Assembly (NCBI RefSeq): GCF_006345805.1
Contig: NC_042997.1
Span: forward strand, 177,692,001-177,756,000
Direction: 5' to 3'
DNA: 64,000 nucleotides
Origin: Octopus sinensis
Taxonomy: Eukaryota
Each line of letters starts with the position of its first letter. The first letter of the stretch is position 1. Positions 39,856 to 58,669 of this stretch are shown here, piece after piece. The notes beneath the pieces were generated by a model. The model was not told where the DNA came from and did not search any database. It saw only the letters and a list, made by a program, of their open reading frames with translations. The position numbers were made by a program, and so were the translations under genes.

Positions 39856-40235
39856 CTTTCCATTTCTTCAGGCGTGCAGTTGTTGAAAATTTCTAGGTAT
39901 AAATGTACAAATTGAAATGCAAAAGAACGTAATAATAAATGGATTTATGAATGAAAGTTTGGTAATTGCTTTTATTTCCACCACGGGACACTTATTTTTG
40001 CAAACATATTTTAACTCTTATTCCTTTGATATCATCTAGATAACAAATACCTACCGAGCGACAGCCAATCACCTAGGGTAGGTATTATAGAGTAATGTTA
40101 TCGTTCAACCCAGCTCCCGTTTCTGTTGGGTTTTCATTCTTGGTTTAAAAAAAATAAAACAAAAAACCCAAAGGTTTTCAGATTATAGGTTACAAAAACA
40201 TTATTATTAGTAGTAGTATCATCATCATCATCATC

Positions 40236-40347
<112 letters not shown>

Positions 40348-41279
40348 TACGTTGTTGTATCTATCTTTGGTACAAAGCCAAATTTGAAGTGTGAATAAAG
40401 TCGATTTAATCGACTTTAAGCCATAGATGGTAATTTCTTAAAATCAATAGGTGAAAATCTAAATTCAGAACATAAGGAGTACATAACTATGCACCTTTAA
40501 GCATTTATTTCGGTGCTGTAACTACCGTTTCTATTGGCAGAAATAGAAGTTTGGTGTGTTATGAGATAATGTAAAATACCAAACGGTATTACGTAGGTAT
40601 GTGAAGTGAAGCGATTTCAACCGTGGCTTCTGACCGTTTCAAGATCTCAGGTTACCGAGATTGTCGTCTCTTCGACTTTGTTACACAGCGTTCAACACAA
40701 TATAAATAACCGAGGGGAAGTTCTTAAACAGCCAGTCGAAATAACGAGGGAGCTCCACACGCATTTGAAACAAAGAAGTCCCCTATAAATTTGAGACGAT
40801 GATGGAGTTGCCTAAGCACTTATTTAAGAGAAAAAACGAAGCCCTCGAGTGCTCATTCGAGATGAGGATAACATCTACTCGTTCAGTCGCGCCAAACAAT
40901 CTAGCAAGGGAAATCCCTTAGCATTCACTATAAACAACGAAGCAAGCCTCCCAGCATGAGACAACTGATCACAACGATGAGGAAAACCCTAAGTTGTTGC
41001 TCGAGACATGGAGGGAACTATCAAATCCTTTAGCAGTTTATCTGGTATATTTACAACGATAATGTGAAGTCTACCAAACATATTGACATTATAATATGCA
41101 GTCTTCGTGACATATTTACTCTATAATTTGCAGTCTATTTGAGATATTTACACAACAGGATAATAAAAAAAATTGCGCCATAGAATTTACAAATGATCAT
41201 CGTATAAAACAAAACATAGTGCCACTGTCATTTCTTGTAGGGGCTCTAAAACGGAAATTTGAGAATCGAGAACTGTCAG

Positions 41280-42435
41280 CTATATTAACTTTACTCTTGA
41301 GAAGATGAAAGGTAAAGCTGGCCTCGAATCAATTTGAACTCAATATATACAGAACCATAACGATTAGTGCAAGATATTTTGCCTAACACTCTAACGATTG
41401 CGACAATCCACCAATAAAGTAATTCTTTCTAATGTAGGCACAAGGCAAACAATTTTGAGGAGATGGGATTAGTGGAACTCATCGACCACAGTTCTTGAAT
41501 GGTACTTTATTTTATCACTCTCCAAAAGGACGAAAGGTAAAACTGATCTTGGTAGGATTTGAATTAGAACGTAAAGAACTGGAACAAATATCGCAAAGCG
41601 TCTCTGCCGATGCTCTAACGATTTCATCAATACACTATAATAACAATTGTTTCTAACATAGACACTATGCCAGAATTATGGAAAAGGAATAGCTGGTTAT
41701 ATAGACCGCTGTACTTCGATGATATTTTATCACGCTTCCCCTATTCCGATGAATGAAAGGCAAAATTAACCTCCACGATATTGGAGTTTAAAATGTAAAG
41801 AATCGCAACAAATACCACAAAATATTTTGTTCGATGATTTAATAAGTCTGCCACACTGTCACCCTCAAAATTGATTCCAGTACTTGATTGGTACTTTACT
41901 TTTATCGATCCAGAAAAGATTGAAAGGAAAGTTTAACTTCGGAGGGATTTGAACTCGGTGACCTGCATTATAATCCTTTCTAATTTTGGTACATGGTCAG
42001 CAATTTTTCAGGGGAAGGACAAGTTGATTACGTCAACCGTAGTACTTGACTTTCATCGACCCCCGGAAGGACAAAAAGGAACGCTGACCTCGGCGGTATT
42101 TGAACTAAGAACGTAAAAGAAAATGGAAGAAACGCCGCTTAGCATTTTGTCCGACGGTCAAACGATTCTGTCAGCTTGCGACCATATCACATTTATTGTT
42201 ATACACTAGAGTATAAGATCTTGAATACTAAGTAGAATATAAGGCGACGAGCTGGAAGAATCGTTTAGCATGCCATATCCGTCTTTAAGTTTTGAGTTTA
42301 AATTCTGCCGAGGTTGACTTTGTCTTTCATCCTTTCGGACTCGATAAAATAAGGACCAGTTGAGTACTGGAATTGATGTATTCGGTTTACCCGCTCCTCC
42401 GAAATTGCTGGCCTTGTGCCAAAAATTTGAAACCC
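41280..42435. mobile_element. Cluster of old SINE family A relics (minus strand) plus one plus-strand copy at 42241-42435
   Basis: Repeated degenerate gaaaggcaaa...gaatttgaactc motifs. Confidence 0.65.
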
Positions 42436-43006
42436 CTATTACGCAGGATATTTTTCTTACACTGTTGAATAATCCAATGACCAAGCACTTTTTCATCCTG
42501 TGAAAAACATGCTACATAATATTAACAACATTAATATTAATCCTTTTATTATTTACATTTAAACCCTTGCACTAGAGTTCCGTTGACTACAGATACTGCA
42601 GTAGACTGCTTGCTGTAGTAGCACTATTATAGCAACAACCAAATATCAATTAAGCTGTATTATTAAAATTGAATAATGTCCAGAATGTAACAATAGAGTA
42701 CTAATTTAATAGCGCACTGCAGGACGCATGAGAACTCATTAGCGAAGTGAGTATAGATAATATATGCGAAATTCCCTTGGGAGTAGGAACTTAAATTGGA
42801 TGATTAAATATATATTCAGTCATACCAAATTAATTAACCTAATAAAAAGACATATCAGGATATCTAAATTATGATTGAAACAATGATTATAAAGTCCGTT
42901 TAGCTTTAAATTATATATAAAAACATTTATTTTATATTTTGTTACAATTTTGAAAGGTTTTTATTTACACATTTTTCAAATAGCTTTATTGTTTTGCTAT
43001 GAATAC

Positions 43007-43068
<62 letters not shown>

Positions 43069-43389
43069 ATATCTTTTATATTATATATATATATATATAT
43101 ATACATACATACATACTACATACATACATACATACACACAACATACATACATACATGCATACATACATACATACATACATACATACATACATACATACAT
43201 ACATACATACGTACGTATGTTTGTATGTATGAATGTATGTGTGGATTGCCGCAATCTTTAGAGGGTAACGGTAGTAGCGACAGCGACAGAAACACCAATA
43301 CTGACGCCAACGACCCGAACACCAGCAGCAACAACATCTCCAGGCCTGGAACCAACCGAATTTGCGACAAAAGAGTGAACAGAACCAAC

Positions 43390-43720
43390 ACTCAAATTCG
43401 GAAATATATCGGGTCAGCCGGGACTGCTGCGCCGTCTGTACAACAACAGGTCCTCTTTCAGGATTCTGGAAAGACGTTTCGTCACATCCTTGGCAAGCCG
43501 TGTGTACCGCCGCAAAGATGAAGGGGCCCCATACAACATCAAGTGGTGGATTATAGAGCGGTCGGAATCCTATATCAACAGGAGCGAACGCCGCAAGTTT
43601 TGCATACCTAAGCGAGCAAGGATCCTCAAATACTCCCTGAAATCAGGATTACTGAATTCACAGCAAGAAATTTACAGTCCCTACAACCATTTCAAACGTT
43701 ACTGCTGCAATCACGTTTAG
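43390..43720 (+). pseudogene. Penelope-like (Neptune-type) GIY-YIG endonuclease, C-terminal fragment
   Basis: KYIGS / [62 protein letters not shown]. Confidence 0.8.
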
Positions 43721-43787
43721 CAATTACGTTTAGAAAAGTATTATCATCAAGAGATTAGAAGTTATTCATTGTCCTTAGAGTTGCATG

Positions 43788-44084
43788 TGAAGGCGCGTGG
43801 CTTAGTGGTTAGGGACATTCGGCTCATGATCGTAAGGTCGTGAGTTCAATTCCCAGCGGCGCGTTGTGTCCTTGAGCAAGACACTTTATTTCACGTTGTT
43901 CCAGTCCACTCTGCTGGCAAAAATGAGTAGTACCTGTATTTCAAAGGGCCAGCCTAGTCACGTCCTGTGTTACGCTGAATCTCCCCGAGAACTACGTTAA
44001 AGGTACACGTGTTTGTGGAGTGCTCAGTCACTTACACGTTGATCGTATCAGCTGGGACCCTTGTCGTCGCAACCGACGGAGTGC
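43788..44084 (+). mobile_element. SINE family B with 16-bp TSD
   Basis: TSD tccttagagttgcatg at 43772-43787 and 44085-44100; CORE-like gtgtccttgagcaagacactt. Confidence 0.92.
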
Positions 44085-44657
44085 TCCTTAGAGTTGCATG
44101 ATATAACAATAATACTGTTCAATTTTACGCATATATCAGTTCAATTGCCCGGGATGGTTTGGGCAATTTATCAGAATGATCGTCAGGGTAACAAACCTGC
44201 TGCTTTGGAATAGTAATGTGGGCAATCAATGGAGAAACTGGAGTCGATGGACTTTAATGAATACTGCATGGAAGTGGATCTAGGATATTGTGAGAATGTG
44301 GGAAGCGGAAAAGAGGGTCGGCGAAAGTGAAGACGTGATGTGCATTAAGGAGACTTCGACCACGGTTGTTAGCTGGTTTATATTAATGGTAAAAGATCTT
44401 TTAAATAGCCCGGTGTATTTAGAGATTCCAGAGGGATGAGAAACAGAGGGAAGGGGAGAGAGAGAGATAGGAGAGAGGAAGAGAGAAATGAGAGAGAGAG
44501 AAATAGTTAAGTTGTTCTTCTGTTGTTAATTGTAATGCAGCGAAAAATATAACCAATAATGTTAAATTAAGCGAAATTACATTTATTCAAATCTAATTAC
44601 AGAGCTTCTCGCTCTCGATCCTTATTTCACATATATATGTGTGTGTATATATATATA

Positions 44658-44697
<40 letters not shown>

Positions 44698-45008
44698 CGC
44701 GCGCGCGTGTATGTATGTATGTATGTGTATATATATATATATAATATATATATATGTGTGTGTGTGTATATATATATATAATAGAAATATTAAAATTACT
44801 AAGTCTCTCTAAAGGAGATTTACGGCAGCGTTACTGGATATTAATAGTTATCGCCATACGAATATGGCAGTCTATAAATAAGACTAAAGCAGTCGCTGAT
44901 TAGCTCCAAGAGGCCATCGCCTCTAGCTAGCTATATGACACACGAACCTGCGTCCATTACAACCTTCGAACAGGGGAGGTCAGCCGCTTCAGCTTGCTAG
45001 TCAGACAT

Positions 45009-45049
45009 CTGCAGACATGTTTCAGGGATGTTGCCCTTTATCAATGCAG
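45009..45049 (-). ncRNA. Hammerhead ribozyme, U3-A8 core variant
   Basis: Reverse complement ctgca-TTGATAA-aggg(caacat)ccct-GAAA-catg-TC-tgcag. Confidence 0.78.
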
Positions 45050-45325
45050 CGTAGTCAGAACCAGCAGGTGTCGCTACTGACCGTCTGTTCGAAGATTTTA
45101 TTTACCTAGTTACAGTGGAATACATCCACTTGTTTTCAATAATAGAAATATTAAAATTACTAAGTCTCTCTAAAGGAGATTACGGCAGCGTTACTGGATA
45201 TTAATAGTTATCGCCATACTAATATGGCAGTCTATAAATAAGACTAAAGCAGTCGCTGATTAGCTCCAAGAGGCCATCGCCTCTAGCTAGCTATATGACA
45301 CACGAACCTGCTGGTTCTGACTACG

Positions 45326-45366
45326 CTGCATTGATAAAGGGCAACAACCCTGAAACATGTCTGCAG
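45326..45366 (+). ncRNA. Hammerhead ribozyme, U3-A8 core variant
   Basis: ctgca-TTGATAA-aggg(caacaa)ccct-GAAA-catg-TC-tgcag. Confidence 0.78.
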
Positions 45367-45530
45367 ATGTCTGACTAGCAAGGTGAAGCGGCTGACCTCC
45401 CTTGTTCGAAGGTTGTAATGGACGCAGGTTCGTGTGTCATATAGCTAGCTAGAGGCGATGGCCTCTTGGAGCTAATCAGCGACAGCTTTAGTCTTATTTA
45501 TAGACTGCCATATTAGTATGTCGATAACTA

Positions 45531-45576
<46 letters not shown>

Positions 45577-45731
45577 ATATATATCAGCTAAGAATCTGAG
45601 CCCGAAATTGCTTGGAGACACAAAGCATGTTATAAAAATTTTCCTAGAGCCGCGATTCCAAGCAAGAAACTATTGATAGCTCGTATCTTTATACAGTACA
45701 CATACATACACTATATGTATCTGTATATATG

Positions 45732-45766
<35 letters not shown>

Positions 45767-45944
45767 TATATATATAATATATTATATATATATATATATA
45801 TATATACGAGCAAAACGTACCCCGCCAAATGGACGGTGCTGAGTTGTCAAACATTTAAACCAAATTTTCTCAAAACAACTTGTCCGACCGTCCCATAGGC
45901 CTCCCCTTTGAGAAACCCTGATTTTAACCTAAATTTGAGACACC

Positions 45945-46265
45945 AGCCGGGCGAAATGATTATACGTATTTCGTCTGTCTACATTCTGAGATCAAATTCC
46001 GCCGAGATCGACTTTGCTTTACATCCTGTGGGCAATAAAGAAAATAAATATTTTACTAACTTAAGGTGGCAGAATCGTTAGCACGCAATATAAAACGCTA
46101 AGCGGGATTTCGTTCGTCTTCTCCTTCTAAGTTCAAATTCCGCCGAGGCCAACTTAATTTTTTCAGGGTCGATAAAATATGTACCAGTTGAGCACTGGGT
46201 TCGATGTAATCGACTTAACCTCTTCCCCAAAAATTGCTGGCCTTGTGCCAAAATTTGAAACCAAT
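45945..46265 (+). mobile_element. SINE family A fragments
   Basis: ccgggcgaaatg...gatcgactttgc and aaggtggcagaatcgttagc...gccaaaatttgaaacc. Confidence 0.75.
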
Positions 46266-46410
46266 ATGATACTAATCCTATCATTTACTCATCGCTTGAT
46301 TATTTCTAATTACATTCTTAATGCGCCAAACTGTGTTCACTTCACTGAATATTTTAGTTCTAACTTACATATATTTCGTTTTTGGATTTTGTTTGCAAGA
46401 TTCTTTAATT

Positions 46411-46686
46411 GAGTTCGTGTGTTGAAGCATATTCTGTTGTGTCTGGGGAGAGTCATTTTCTTTTTGTGCCTTATAATGTAACACACTCAACGGTAAAATT
46501 TCCACTTATTTCTTATTTTTATTTTCCTAAAATTTTCGTTGCGTCTTGCAACCTTTTCTATAGTCTTGACTCTGTCCGTTATTTACACTGCGTTCCTTTT
46601 TGTTTGTTTGTGCGCATGTGTGTGGGTCAGTGTGTATGTATGTGCTTATGCATGCATGCATGTACATATGTATGTGTGTATGTATG

Positions 46687-46737
<51 letters not shown>

Positions 46738-46951
46738 GCATCTGTATGTATGTGTCCTGTATATTCATGCGCACAAACAAACAAAAAGGAACGCAGTGTA
46801 AATAACGGACAGTGTCAAGACTACTGAAAGGTTGCAAGATACAACGAAAATTTTAGGAAAATAAAAATAAGAAATAAGTGGAAATTTTGCCGGTGAGTGT
46901 GTTACATTATAAGGCACAAAAAGAAAATGACTCTCCCCAGACACAACAGAA
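46411..46951. mobile_element. Foldback element (~190-bp arms around a (TG)n spacer)
   Basis: attctgttgtgtctggggagagtc...gtgcgcatg versus catgcgcac...gactctccccagacacaacagaat. Confidence 0.85.
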
Positions 46952-47643
46952 TTACATATAACAACTGACACGAAATCCCTAATTCGATAACTTATTGCCA
47001 ATAGCCCATCTATGTACTATGTTCTTTGTCTGTAATAATTTCTGCTCTTTTAATCAGCCATTGCTTGTGAACTACCTGCTCCCGAATTAAATCGACCCAC
47101 TTCCTCCATCATTACTCCGAGTCAATGAGCCACTGTGGTCGCTCGACTGACATGAAACTGCAATCAATCTCCCTTAAACCATTCAATAACGTAGTCCTAC
47201 ATGTACCTTAAAAGATTTGGGTGGTCTTAGCTGGAATACTTTTGATTATTTGTCAGCAGCGAACTACCTGCACCTGAATGAAATCGATGCATCATCTCAC
47301 TTCCCACATCATCACTCGGAATCAACAAGTCAGTCTGTTGTCGCTTGTCCCTTGCTATAAACTATAGCCTAAATCTTTACACTACTAACTTAAGAAAGGA
47401 AAGACATTTAACAACGTAGTCCTACATGCACTCCTGAATGCCTTTGATCGTAAGCCTGCTCGTCTAGGGATGACCTGGGGTTAAACAACAATCAGAACAT
47501 TATCTTTCAGGCATTATATTTCCAGGCGGTGAACTAAACATTTTTCTCGGTTGCTCCCCTCTATAGCAGCAATCCTCTCTAGAACAACTTTCCTTCTTCT
47601 AAAAAAAAATATCAGTAAAAGTTCCAGAGGAAAATCATCTGCA

Positions 47644-47911
47644 GTGTCTGGGAAGAGTCATTTTCTTTTTGTGCCTTATAATGTAACATACTCACCGGTA
47701 AAATTTCCACTTATTTCTTATTTTTATTTTCTTAAAATTTTCGTTGCGTCTTGCAACCTTTTCAATAGCCTTGAGTCAAGACTACTGAAAAGGTTGCAAG
47801 ACGCAACGAAAATTTTAGGAAAATAAAAAAAAGAAATAAGTGGAAATTTTAAGGCACAAAAAGAAAATGACTCTCCTCAGACACAACAGAATATGCTTCA
47901 ACACACGAACT
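47644..47911. mobile_element. Second foldback copy of the same family, without a spacer
   Basis: Folds at ccttgagtcaag; ends acacgaactc, the reverse complement of the 46411 terminus. Confidence 0.85.
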
Positions 47912-48675
47912 CATATAAATAATCTTGCAAACCAAATGGAAAGACGAAATATCATCTGCAGTGTTCTAATCAATCTCTCAGGTTGTGATATGCAAATGTC
48001 TACAGGAACTGCATCGCTTTTTTCGTACCATATAATTGCTTCTAACACAGACTCTTGTACTTTATTTTATCGACCATAAGGGGATTAAAAGACAAAGCTG
48101 ACCTCAATGGAAACTGAACTCAGAGCATAAAAAGCCGAAATAAATACCGCAAGGCATTTTATCTGACGCCCTGACGATTCTGACATTCCACCGTCGGAAG
48201 CGGTAAAGCGTACGATAAAGGAAATGAATGACGTTTATCAAACAAATAGGAATATAGTTAACCAACAGTTGATTTCTCGCTTCTGTACACACGACATAAA
48301 CTTTTTATAGAGGCTTCTTTAGACTGGGATAAAAATTAAAAACAAAAAACTGAAGCCTGTCTCAAGTTGACAGGGATAAGCTCCGATTACACCGGAGCTT
48401 ATTCTAGTTCCTGTCGCATTTAAGCAACTGTCAGCACAAGACTTCTTTCAGATAATGATGCTAGTTCGTCGCGAAGATAATCTGTCTTTTTAGTTGAGTG
48501 AACTGCAGCAATGTAAAATAAGTTCCTTGCACAAGGACACAGCGTGCTGCCGAGCCCATAAAACAGGATTTTGTGACATTCATAACTTACCGAATGACAT
48601 TCAGCAGTTTCTATTATCACCTAAAATCGAAACTGGATTTTTCTTTGATTTAATTAATCACCTTTTTAATTATAA

Positions 48676-49063
48676 CTAGCAGTATCGCCCGTCGTTGCTC
48701 GGGTTTGTTTCGACCCTTTAGAATTGGAAGTTTTGAAAAGTAAAATTTTTGCATTTTGTAGTTTGTTGTTCTCTTTAAGTTAACATTTTTCTGGTTATAC
48801 ACCGAAAAATGGCAACACAGCAGTCAAAAAATCGTAAAAAAATGGGGATTTTCATAGAAAAAAAGCACCTTTTTTATGTAAATAATTTTTGGTGTTAACA
48901 TGGTCCGATTTGAATTTTTTCTTCTACGGAAGGAAGAGCAAGCCTTCTTCTATCATACTCCCAATTTTGGTCAACTTGCGCCGCAGGGTCTCGGAGGAAA
49001 TAGTGTTAGTTGAAGGCTACCAAACCTGCCATACACAGACAACTTCAGCTTTATATATAGAGA
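48676..49063 (-). mobile_element. Non-autonomous Helitron, 388 bp
   Basis: Minus strand starts TCTCTATATATAAAG and ends with the cccgagcaacgacggg hairpin + CTAG; inserted between A and T. Confidence 0.88.
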
Positions 49064-50064
49064 TTAGTAAACAATAGTATTGTTTATTACATGCTTCCAG
49101 GTGATTACTGCTTTTCTGGCGGTCAGATTGACAGGAGTACCTATAATTCGCAGCTGAGCAAATATCGCAGGGGAACTTCGCTCACGAAGCACTGGTTTTT
49201 CGGTTTTCTCACCGATGTTTACATCGTTCGCTGATATATGCATGTGTGTCTCCACATCACTCGGGCTAGAGATGATAAAAGAATATACGACAGACTTCCG
49301 CACGATTTCCATCTCGTAAGGCATTAATCAACTCGAGAAAATGGCAGTCGTTTGTTTCGAAGGTACTGTGTAATAAAATAAAAACCCTGTAATAACTTGG
49401 TTACCACCCGAACTTCTTAGCCACGCGGCTATACCGCTTAGTCTTCTACGCTCTGCTCATTATGGTTTAATAGCGCTGAACTTAATGCTTTTGAAGAGCA
49501 TCTTGGGATAAAATAAAAGCATAAACAAATAGCAATTAAAATAATCATTCCGACTCCATTAATGACGCTAACACCAAGGAAGACATTTTAGATTTAGAAT
49601 TAGAATAGATAATGACCTCACGCACATTTTCAGATAACTGATTGCGGAAAAGGAGACAGTTTAAATACTAACCACACAACTCACTATTTCCCATTCTCTC
49701 TATCTATCTCTCTTTCTCTCTCTCTCTCTCACTCACTCTCTCTCTTTCTCTCTCTCTCTTCCTCTTTCTCTCTCTCCCTCTCTTTCTCTCCTTCCCTATC
49801 AAAACTAATCCACGTATTCCTCTATTTTCTATAAGCTTTCCTCAATCCAACAACTAAAATCCACGAAGAAGTGGTTATATTTCGAACATTTGTTTGATAA
49901 AATCTTTATTCTTTTTCAAATTTTGTTTTCAGCAACAGTGTGTTTTTTTATTCTCGTTTTTTTTTTGTTGTTATTATTGTTACTATCAGTTATTATTTAT
50001 TTGTTTTCATTTTCCAATGTGTGTGTGTGTGGTTTGTGGTTTTATTATTATTATCGTTAATAAC

Positions 50065-55450: not shown

Positions 55451-56277
55451 GGTGATGGCGGCAGCGGTGGCAACAGCGACAGTGGAGTGGCGGTAGCGGC
55501 GACAGCGGAGCGGTGGAAGCGGCGACAGTGGAGCGGCGGCAGAGGGATATTTTGCTATTATTTCTAACCGGTGGGTTGATGTATCTTCATATTTGCAAGA
55601 GCCAATATATTAGTGTTTATGCTTTTGTGTGTATGTGTATGTGTGTATGTGTATGTGTATGTGTGTGTGTGTATGTGTATGTGTGTGTGTGTATGTGTAT
55701 TGTCTATGTTTGCAAGCATGTGTATTTGTTTGTATGTGTGCTTGTGGTCTTTCTACGTTAGTTATGTGCTTGTTAGTGTACGTATTTATGTGTTTGCTTG
55801 TGTTTCTGTGCGTATATGTGTGTGTTATCTATGTGTGCACGTATGTCTGTGCATATGTTTGTCTGTGTGCGTGTGTATTTATATGTGTACGCATGTGTGT
55901 GTGTGTGCGCGCCGTATGCGTCTTTATCATATGTGTATGTTGTGTATATGCGCCATGTGTGTGTATATGTGTTTGTCTATGTTTGTATGTGTACGTGCGA
56001 GTGTATGTGGGTTGGTCAAATGTTTGCGCATGTGTGTGTGTGTGTGTGTGCGTGCGTGTTTGCATGTATGAGTGTTTGTGTTTGTATGCGCATGCGTGTG
56101 TATATATCAATTTATGAATGATTGTACATGGATGACCCCATGCGAACGTGCCTAAGTGCCGAGGTGAATCAAAGTAACATTGCATTTAATTACGAGTATC
56201 TATGCGATTTACTGATTCGAGTGTGTATGCGTACATGTATACATGTGTGTGCATGTGTAGCTGTGTATCTGTTTCCG

Positions 56278-58233
56278 TATATGCATATATATATTTGTGA
56301 GTCTGTGTGTGTGTGAGAAAGGGTTTGCATTTGAACAAATACGTCCACATTTTGGGGATATACTTACGTAGGTATATGCATATATATTTGTGAGTCTGTG
56401 TGTGTGTGAGAAAGGGTTTGCATTTGAACAAATACGTCCACATTTTGGGGATATACATACGTAGGTATATGCATATATATTTGTGAGTCTGTGTGTGAGT
56501 GAGAAAGGGTTTGCATTTGAACAAATACGTCCACATTTTGGGGATATACTTACGTAGGTATATGCATATATATTTGTGAGTCTGTGTGTGAGTGAGAAAG
56601 GGTTTGCATTTGAACAAATACGTCCACATTTTGGGGATATACATACGTAGGTATATGCATATATATTTGTGAGTCTGTGTGTGAGTGAGAAAGGGTTTGC
56701 ATTTGAACAAATACGTCCACATTTTGGGGATATACTTACGTAGGTATATGCATATATATTTGTGAGTCTGTGTGTGAGTGAGAAAGGGTTTGCATTTGAA
56801 CAAATACGTCCACATTTTGGGGATATACTTACGTAGGTATATGCATATATATTTGTGAGTCTGTGTGTGAGTGAGAAAGGGTTTGCATTTGAACAAATAC
56901 GTCCACATTTTGGGGATATACTACGTAGGTATATGCATATATATTGTGAGTCTGTGTGTGAGTGAGAGAAAGGGTTTGCATTTGAACAAATACGTCCACA
57001 TTTTGGGGATATACATACGTAGGTATATGCATATATATTTGTGAGTCTGTGTGTGTGTGAGAAAGGGTTTGCATTTGAACAAATACGTCCACATTTTGGG
57101 GATATACATACGTAGGTATATGCATAATATTTGTGAGTCTGTGTGTGTGAGTGAGAAAGGTTTGCATTTGAACAAATACGTCCACATTTTGGGGATATAC
57201 ATACGTAGGTATATGCATATATATTTGTGAGTCTGTGTGTGTGAGTGAGAAAGGGTTTGCATTTGAACAAATACGTCCACATTTTGGGGATATACTTACG
57301 TAGGTATATGCATATATATTTGTGAGTCTGTGTGTGAGTGAGAAAGGGTTGCATTTGAACAAATACGTCCACATTTTGGGGATATACTTACGTAGGTATA
57401 TGCATATATATTTGTGAGTCTGGTGTGAGTGAGAAAGGGTTTGCATTTGAACAAATACGTCCACATTTTGGGGATATACTTATGTAGGTATATGCATAAT
57501 ATTTGTGAGTCTGTGTGTGAGTGAGAAAGGGTTTGCATTTGAACAAATACGTCCACATTTTGGGGATTATACTTACGTAGGTATATGCATATATATTTGT
57601 GAGTCTGTGTGTGAGTGAGAAAGGGTTTGCATTTGAACAAATACGTCCACATTTTGGGGATATACTTACGTAGGTATATGCATATATATTTGTGAGTCTG
57701 TGTGTGTGTGAGAAAGGGTCTGCATTTGAACAAATACGTCCACATTTTGGGGATATACTTACGTAGGTATATGCATATATATCTGTGAGTCTGTGTGTGA
57801 GTGAGAAAGGGTTTGCATTTGAACAAATACGTCCACATTTTGGGGATATACTTACGTAGGTATATGCATATATATTTGTGAGTCTGTGTGTGTGTGAGAA
57901 AGGGTTTGCATTTGAACAAATACGTCCACATTTTGGGGATATACTTACGTAGGTATATGCATATATATCTGTGAGTCTGTGTGTGAGTGAGAAAGGGTTT
58001 GCATTTGAACAAATACGTCCACATTTTGGGGATATACTTACGTAGGTATATGCATATATATTTGTGAGTCTGTGTGTGTGTGTGAGAAAGGGTTTGCATT
58101 TGAACAAATACGTCCACATTTTGGGGGATATACTACGTAGGTATATGCATATATATCTGTGAGTCTGTGTGTGAGTGAGAAAGGATTTGCATTTGAACAA
58201 ATACGTCCACATTTGGGGGATATACTTACGTAG
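56278..58233. repeat. 93-bp minisatellite, about 21 copies
   Basis: gagaaagggtttgcatttgaac at 56315 and 56408; 31-aa period in the ORF track. Confidence 0.97.
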
Positions 58234-58669
58234 ATATATTTACGTGTACTTTTATGAGCGCATGCGCTTTGCTTAATAGAACTGCGGAATACGACAGAGA
58301 AACAAATGTACTATTAATAATATGTATATGCATATCATGTCCATGCATACATATAGATATTTGCCTCTAGCATTAGTAAATTAACAGCCTTTCGCTTAAT
58401 GTCTCCTGATAAAGATATTTGATATGCATCAAGATACGATGCTAATTTAAAATTATAATTGTCTTCAGTATATTTTAGCGCCTCGGATGTAAAATAAATT
58501 AACTATATAACCGTTAGTCTGTTTTAATAGAGACATTGATTCGCCTAATTAGAAATTTTGCTTTTTCGCATATAAACAGTACAAAATGCTTCAATTTATT
58601 TTAATTGTTTCGTTCATTTTTCTCTTTACAATTGCGTTATGAAATAATAATTCTACATACTCAATTAAC

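What the first reader, a model, noticed from the sequence alone, without database searches (positions are those of the whole stretch)
44780..45538. Retrozyme-like 361-nt hairpin-rich tandem unit with a hammerhead at the tip of a long rod
Seen: a non-coding unit repeats head-to-tail with a 361-bp period (44781 and 45142). On the minus strand it carries a hammerhead whose stem I extends into a long interrupted helix (ctgca/tgcag, gac/gtc, tgctggtt/gactagca, ggtcag/ctgacc, atcttcgaacag/ctgttcgaaggt). The rest of the unit is a chain of short hairpins (agagg/cctct, agtct/agact, gccata-TTCG-tatggc, tctc/gaga, agtgga/tccact). Known: metazoan non-LTR retrozymes are few-hundred-nt tandem repeats with minimal type I hammerheads that yield circular RNA and are thought to use Penelope-like machinery. 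Inferred: this is a genomic copy made by reverse transcription around a 361-nt viroid-like circRNA, possibly an undescribed cephalopod family.
Basis: partly seen in the sequence, partly recalled or inferred. Interest (0 to 1): 0.88.

Follow-up and report, generated by a model that had tools for sequence, protein, structure and literature searches.

The report
Hammerhead retrozyme riding Penelope machinery
This is one copy of a 360-base non-coding jumping element, present at over a thousand places in this animal genome, that carries a structurally conserved, predicted self-cutting RNA and is likely pasted in by the enzymes of Penelope-like retrotransposons; it is a new member of a known kind (animal retrozymes) whose insertion scars follow an unusually strict rule.

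Summary
The element is real, but the window holds 1.5 head-to-tail units plus an inverted third arm, inside (AT)n, not a plain tandem. Its minus strand carries a minimal type I hammerhead (U3-A8 core, palindromic stem III) on a long rod. The family is large (1,619 exact unit-to-unit junctions), with subfamilies and a sister family; stems I and II, the stem III palindrome (CATG, CTAG, CGCG, CCCGGG) and three 3' hairpins change compensatorily, so the RNA fold is likely selected. Ends are not circularly permuted: 117 of 142 3' ends lie at two sites 60 nt apart, the Penelope 'tail'. In two-armed insertions 53 of 55 use one site per arm; a young coding Penelope-like element here does the same (5 of 5) and shares the core and (AT)n target. 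No copy was the terminal repeat of a coding element. Verdict: new non-LTR retrozyme, i.e. non-autonomous Penelope-like element. Cleavage, circular RNA, the partner and the host clade are untested. The scan noted ribozyme-free elements of this kind in two other genomes, not this family.

The parts
44778..45138 (-). Complete unit (u1-361; window = 45139 - u); its 3' end at 44778 is the outer fixed end (u361)
45139..45311 (-). 5'-truncated upstream unit (u188-361), head-to-tail with the complete unit, 99% identical
45306..45537 (+). Inverted arm (u70-301), 97% identical, ending at the inner fixed end (u301); overlaps the direct arm by 6 nt
45009..45049 (-). Minimal type I hammerhead: stem I u90-94/126-130, U3-A8 core u95-101, stem II u102-105/112-115, GAAA, palindromic stem III; predicted cut between 45014 and 45013
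   Evidence: sequence
45326..45366 (+). Second hammerhead, in the inverted arm; predicted cut between 45361 and 45362
44962..45097 (-). Long interrupted rod that carries the hammerhead at its tip
44901..44933 (-). Two-part hairpin (H1, H2) shared with sister family B, with three pairs changed on both sides
44853..44868 (-). Hairpin 15 nt before the inner end, shared with family B (one pair changed on both sides); family loop TTAG, TTCG only here and in one other segment
44778..44837 (-). 60-nt 'tail' between the two fixed 3' ends (u302-361)
44710..44777 (.). (AT)n-rich target microsatellite, left flank
45538..45584 (.). (AT)n target microsatellite, right flank

Best explanation
This is one insertion of a high-copy, 360-nt non-coding repeat with a predicted self-cleaving hammerhead, two fixed 3' ends and an inverted second arm, likely mobilised as RNA by the reverse transcriptase and GIY-YIG nuclease of a Penelope-like element (a non-LTR retrozyme). 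Shown: unit, tandem and inverted arms, fixed ends, (AT)n targets, covariation, same template variants in both arms. Inferred: multimeric RNA is cut only when two hammerheads pair through the stem III palindrome; monomers are probably ligated to circles (about 55%; otherwise uncleaved multimer is the template); a Penelope protein cuts both strands of (AT)n, and one DNA end primes at u361, the other at u301; each copy runs past the unit boundary and the two are joined head-to-head at 2-6 nt of microhomology. The likeliest partner is the young coding family PLE1 (about 50%).
For: 117 of 142 outward 3' ends at u301 or u361, 79 of those 117 followed by (AT)n. Two-armed insertions with both ends fixed: 34 of 36 use one site each (p 2e-8) and 19 of 19 in a second set. 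11-14 bp duplications where the target is not (AT)n (7 clear cases among 112 loci). 1,619 exact junctions, 0 in control; 19 of 76 arms span two or more cleavage sites in a set enriched for multimers. 5' ends do not pile up at the cut: 3 of 143 and 4 of 76. Common non-CpG variants agree within an arm 49 of 61, between arms 63 of 81, between loci 8%. Covariation: 6 of 39 pairs changed on both sides, 96.7% paired against 27-44% when slid; 4 of 15 pairs, 95.6% against 37-46%. PLE1 (RT + GIY-YIG) has the same core and CATG palindrome, (AT)n ends, two 3' ends, one per arm in 5 of 5; nine copies are 99.1-99.9% identical to L091 in the RT, the youngest retrozyme subfamily is 1.1% from its column majority. 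The same anatomy is described for Penelope-like elements (PMC8557442, PMC11167929, PMC3846280).
Against: No cleavage, ligation or circle was measured. Outside the hammerhead core no similarity to the untranslated parts of the sampled coding families was found, so the partner is not proven, and at least nine GIY-YIG groups occur among 30 loci. One arm holds two units with different hammerheads (L259/L280), which one circle cannot give. The two longest arrays look expanded after insertion (L309 alternates two unit types; four middle units of L311 share changes that its ends lack). In the window the two direct units share a rare variant that the inverted arm lacks. In one tested Penelope the unprocessed RNA was the dominant template (PMC11167929), and 8 of 9 frog retrozyme dimers did not cleave in vitro (10.64898/2026.07.22.740005).
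Confidence: 0.8

Rival explanations
1. Same element and enzymes, but the template is an uncleaved linear multimer or monomers joined by template jumps or by insertion into the element's own AT-rich end; no circle is needed.
For: Unprocessed RNA was the dominant substrate for the anole element, which also nicks its own repeat (PMC11167929). Mixed-hammerhead arm L259/L280. Arrays of up to about 8 units exist as possible sources. All end, variant and length data fit this too.
Against: A linear template loses sequence at each 5'-truncated round, yet unit-plus arms persist across subfamilies 20% apart. The palindrome is kept in four different sequences, so cleavage between two hammerheads looks selected. 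Tested animal retrozymes make circles (PMC7229834).
Confidence: 0.35
2. The copies are 5'-truncated terminal repeats (pLTRs) of a coding Penelope-like element not yet sampled.
For: Minimal hammerheads, U3-A8 included, sit in pLTRs (PMC4209133); only 150 of 5,029 GIY-YIG candidates were scored and 30 loci read.
Against: What lies upstream of a unit is another unit or an inverted arm; 1,619 unit-to-unit junctions. 6 of 112 loci had Penelope ORF homology in the flank, none continuing in sense into the unit; 1 of 12 and 0 of 30 in two other subfamily sets.
Confidence: 0.07
3. A DNA-level satellite or foldback element in which the hammerhead is incidental.
For: The inverted arms resemble a foldback; L309 and L311 show probable DNA-level expansion.
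Against: Arms are variably 5'-truncated with fixed 3' ends; pairs change compensatorily on one strand's fold, including G-U pairs; copies are dispersed over many contigs.
Confidence: 0.03

Closest known systems
Metazoan non-LTR retrozymes (Cervera and de la Pena 2020, PMC7229834; Li, Clavereau and Pollet 2026, 10.64898/2026.07.22.740005)
   Same: Non-coding tandem unit of 150-450 nt with a type I hammerhead, GC under 50%, long target duplications, co-existing Penelope-like elements; mussel units are 350-390 nt; weak palindromic stem III as in axolotl HHR_Amex1.
   Different: Mostly short, dispersed arms with two fixed 3' ends and inverted 5' arms, features not reported for retrozymes in the parts of these papers I read; U3-A8 core; circles and cleavage not shown here; no sequence link to a partner's pLTR beyond the ribozyme core.
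Penelope-like elements with endonuclease, Neptune type (PMC8557442, PMC11167929, PMC3846280, PMC4209133)
   Same: Partial tandem, inverted 5'-truncated arm, optional tail between two start sites, (TA)n targets, minimal hammerhead with palindromic stem III.
   Different: No ORF; the repeated unit is 360 nt; the tail is 60 nt (45 in family B) rather than 30-40.
Non-autonomous Chlamys elements such as MRC1 (PMC8557442, passage)
   Same: Non-autonomous Penelope-like elements with multicopy head-to-tail insertions.
   Different: Those generally resemble their autonomous family at the 3' end and occur in green algae; this family showed no such 3' similarity to the families sampled.
L1 twin priming (recalled, not read)
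   Same: Two target strands prime separately and give an inverted 5' arm joined at microhomology.
   Different: Here both start sites are fixed and the two arms copy overlapping sequence.

Membership tests
Non-LTR retrozyme | Non-coding tandem unit of a few hundred nt | tested here: met
   360-362 nt unit, 1,619 junctions, arrays to about 8 units
Non-LTR retrozyme | Type I hammerhead in each unit, with conserved core and covarying stems | tested here: met
   no Rfam hit
Non-LTR retrozyme | [quoted passage not shown] | tested here: met
   Met by the family (8 of 143 and 19 of 76 arms); not by the window copy, whose two hammerheads are on opposite strands
Non-LTR retrozyme | No LTR, PBS or PPT; target duplications longer than 4 bp | tested here: met
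   11-14 bp duplications at 7 non-(AT)n loci; no tRNA gene in 43500-46000; PBS and PPT not searched separately
Non-LTR retrozyme | Self-cleavage of dimer RNA | not testable with these tools
   needs a bench assay
Non-LTR retrozyme | Expressed as linear and circular monomer RNA | not testable with these tools
   only contigs of runs of unrecorded type were available
Penelope-like element insertion signature | Partial tandem with 5' truncation and inverted 5' arm | tested here: met
   53 of 85 loci two-armed head-to-head
Penelope-like element insertion signature | Two 3' ends separated by a tail | tested here: met
   117 of 142 ends; 64 of 76
Penelope-like element insertion signature | (TA)n target bias | tested here: met
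   79 of 117 fixed ends against 9 of 25 other ends
Autonomous Penelope-like element (pLTR of a coding copy) | RT and GIY-YIG ORF collinear with the repeat | tested here: not met
   0 of 112 loci collinear; flanks of 1.5-2 kb and two query proteins only
Derivative of a named autonomous partner | Sequence similarity to the partner's pLTR or 3' end | tested here: inconclusive
   only the hammerhead core and palindrome match PLE1; most coding families unsampled
Viroid-like circular RNA | RNA-to-RNA replication of a circle | not testable with these tools
   no raw RNA reads

The most novel reading that the evidence does not exclude
A Penelope protein dimer primes the two cut target strands at two different fixed sites on one circular retrozyme RNA, one site per strand, and rolls past the ligated hammerhead. 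This would turn the long-noted 'tail at one end only' and the inverted arm of Penelope elements into one coupled mechanism, and be genomic proof that retrozyme circles are the transposition template.
Probability: 0.35. Interest if true: 0.72.

Novelty: new member of a known kind. Interest (0 to 1): 0.55.

Why it matters
That animal retrozymes use Penelope enzymes has rested on co-occurrence and on similarity to pLTRs. Here a purely non-coding hammerhead repeat carries the whole Penelope insertion signature in many young copies beside a young coding element. The one-site-per-arm rule (53 of 55) says the two priming events are coupled, whereas the in vitro study saw no difference in start site between strands (PMC11167929). 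A 360-nt RNA with known start sites and four natural palindrome variants is a small substrate for testing circle against linear template, an open question in Penelope biology.

Tried and rejected
Rfam scan of 40000-50000: no hammerhead family, only microsatellite-driven miRNA matches under their gathering scores. Circular permutation of ends: rejected. UUCG tetraloop as a family feature: rejected. Cleaved linear monomer as template without jumps: rejected, 5' ends do not gather at the cut. Core 'conservation' of 0.4%: discarded, the loci were chosen by that pattern. Hammerhead-constrained fold and the site count used wrong indices and were redone; the H1 and H5 rows were mis-set, H1 redone. 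Expression: no RNA holder listed; contigs of four runs guessed to be RNA cover the unit, but a neighbouring SINE-like repeat is covered about a hundredfold deeper and unique DNA not at all, so this says nothing on monomers or circles. tRNA module, prompted by earlier notes: none. Partner search by blastn and nhmmer over 48 coding-element loci: only inserted A or B copies hit. Position-specific differences between upstream and downstream units: none seen three times or more outside CpG-type changes except weak ones at u271-272. Atlas and Pfam on the PLE1 upstream ORF: nothing usable. A Pol III A/B box reading of u140-175 was considered by eye and dropped (spacing too short). Literature searches that found no description of this family: retrozyme+hammerhead+Penelope, octopus+hammerhead ribozyme (17), Penelope+twin priming (58), octopus+Penelope+non-autonomous+cephalopod (59), retrozyme+cephalopod (84); Repbase, Dfam and the papers' supplements were not seen and may hold it.

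Full report
Numbering: u = reverse complement of window 44778-45138, so window = 45139 - u.

Observation. The window holds a complete unit (44778-45138), a 174-nt upstream part of a second unit (45139-45311, 99%) and an inverted arm (45306-45537, u70-301, 97%), between (AT)n tracts. The minus strand folds better than 100 of 100 shuffles (z -5.79) and better than the plus strand (z -4.00); as a circle it gives -118.2 kcal/mol, and -117.9 with stems I and II of the hammerhead formed. The hammerhead has a U3-A8 core and a two-pair stem III that is part of a six-letter palindrome. Rfam does not detect it. U3-A8 and palindromic stem III are described for Penelope hammerheads, which are thought to work as dimers (PMC4209133, results and discussion read). 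The TTCG loop and the 361st base are rare changes of this copy.

Family. In G000 the unit gave 2,466 first-look candidates, 40 scored. Exact patterns gave 195 matches for this subfamily's hammerhead, 42 for subfamily A3 and 1,619 for the unit-to-unit junction, each with 0 in the reversed control. Subfamilies: A1 (this copy; median 2.0% from the column majority), A2 (85-91% to u), A3 (about 80%), A4 (81-82% to u, 25 of 40 junction loci, median 1.1%). A sister family B (3,272 candidates, 78-89% between copies, about 359-nt unit, C3-G8 core) has the same layout and two ends 45 nt apart.

Covariation. Across A1, A2 and A3 (20 rows) 6 of 39 pairs change on both sides: two in stem I, two in stem II, the centre of the palindrome and one rod pair; 96.7% of cells pair, against 27-44% when slid. 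Between A and B, 4 of 15 pairs in three 3' hairpins change on both sides, 95.6% against 37-46%, and stem I keeps its pairing with other letters. These are a handful of events inherited by many rows, and the structures were drawn from one member, so the controls lean in favour. Stem III is a palindrome in 214 of 233 hammerheads held, in four main sequences; CATG and CTAG were selected by my patterns, CGCG and CCCGGG were not.

Ends. Of the first 100 listed core matches I examined 90, which fell in 86 loci after dropping 4 repeats of the same insertion. 117 of 142 outward 3' ends lie at u295-303 or u352-361; 79 of these are followed by (AT)n, against 9 of 25 others. 5' ends are scattered. After dropping one further duplicate, 53 of 85 loci are two arms head-to-head; 36 have both ends at fixed sites, and 34 of them have one of each (binomial p 2e-8); most junctions overlap by 2-6 nt. 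In 40 loci picked from the first 100 junction matches (11 chosen for several junctions), 19 of 19 follow the rule, 4 more have one unfixed end. Seven loci with non-(AT)n targets show 11-14 bp duplications. Partial tandem, inverted truncated arm, tail often at one end only and (TA)n bias are the Penelope signature (PMC8557442 and PMC3846280, passages); the tail is the stretch between two internal start sites of reverse transcription (PMC11167929, main text read).

Template. 105 of 143 arms span the predicted cut (partly by selection), 8 span two, and 3 begin near it; in the second set 60 of 76 span one or more, 19 two or more, 4 begin near it. Common non-CpG variants agree between units of one arm in 49 of 61 cases, between opposite arms in 63 of 81, between loci in 8% (112 insertions). 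Arms of two to three units share their variants (L312-L315, L318). So both arms and all units usually come from one template sequence that is continuous across the cut: a circle, an uncleaved multimer or seamless jumps. Against a pure circle: the mixed-hammerhead arm L259/L280, probable later expansion of L309 and L311, and one rare variant in the window's direct arm that its inverted arm lacks.

Partner. A GIY-YIG search scored 150 of 5,029 candidates; 30 loci fell in 11 groups, two of them resembling a host gene (by eye). PLE1 (L091) has a 781-aa frame with RT and GIY-YIG and the zinc-finger-like linker of Neptune and Nematis clades (PMC8557442, passage; no tree built). It ends in (AT)n about 100 nt after a hammerhead with the same core and CATG palindrome as A1-A2, has two 3' ends about 40 nt apart, one per arm in 5 of 5 resolved head-to-head insertions (one more ran on, one was tail-to-tail), and is young. 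No other similarity to the unit was found. 6 of 112 A1 loci had Penelope ORF homology in the flank; none ran in sense into the unit, and in L227 a PLE2 3' end abuts an inverted arm. Named homologues of PLE1 came from mollusc-symbiont assemblies, a weak hint of a mollusc lineage; the host clade was not tested.

Expression could not be judged.

Comparison. Non-LTR retrozymes are tandem hammerhead repeats that make circles in coral, mussel and axolotl (PMC7229834, results and discussion read) and are proposed to be non-autonomous Penelope derivatives (10.64898/2026.07.22.740005, abstract to discussion read, supplements closed). This family meets every sequence-level feature; cleavage and circles are untested. 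Five searches found no description of it; PMC8967140 (passages) does not mention ribozymes. Supplements, Repbase and Dfam were not seen. L1 twin priming is recalled, not read. Two earlier scan notes describe ribozyme-free elements of the same kind in other genomes; sequence and place look-ups returned nothing.

Verdict. A new member of a known kind, with well-supported RNA structure and a strict one-site-per-arm insertion rule that makes the Penelope mechanism and the circle question testable. Interest 0.55.

Noticed in passing
L091:1174-2613 (G000:C1, PLE1): A 479-aa open frame overlaps the start of the RT-GIY-YIG frame and recurs in L095; no Pfam match over cut-off and no Atlas hit.
   Followed up: partly
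L106:5120-5180 and L098 (PLE2): A second coding family with a C3-G8 hammerhead and a GTAC palindrome in stem III, also ending in (AT)n.
   Followed up: partly
L109-L138 (family B): Older sister retrozyme family, about 359 nt, C3-G8 core, CCCGGG palindrome, 45-nt tail; L098:1300-1570 holds a further variant with CTCGAG.
   Followed up: yes
L259/L280 (G000:C1:15116457-15116847): One arm with two different hammerhead subfamilies in tandem.
   Followed up: partly
L309 (G000:C1:28192000-28196500): Array of about 8 units in which two unit types alternate, one with a stem I change and one with a stem II change.
   Followed up: partly
L227:1849: PLE2 3' end directly abuts a family-A inverted arm; probably two insertions in one target.
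   Followed up: partly
window 46371-46952 and 47638-47952: Two copies of another foldback-like repeat with 92-97% complementary arms.
   Followed up: no
window 43790-44090: SINE-like high-copy repeat with a tRNA-like head by eye; very deep cover in run contigs; ARAGORN calls no tRNA.
   Followed up: partly
window 56277-58239: 93-bp minisatellite, 21 copies, 96% matches.
   Followed up: no
family A, u162-190: 5' ends of arms cluster at the 3' base of the rod, at a six-letter palindrome, in both the first and second round of copying; a stall or inversion site.
   Followed up: partly
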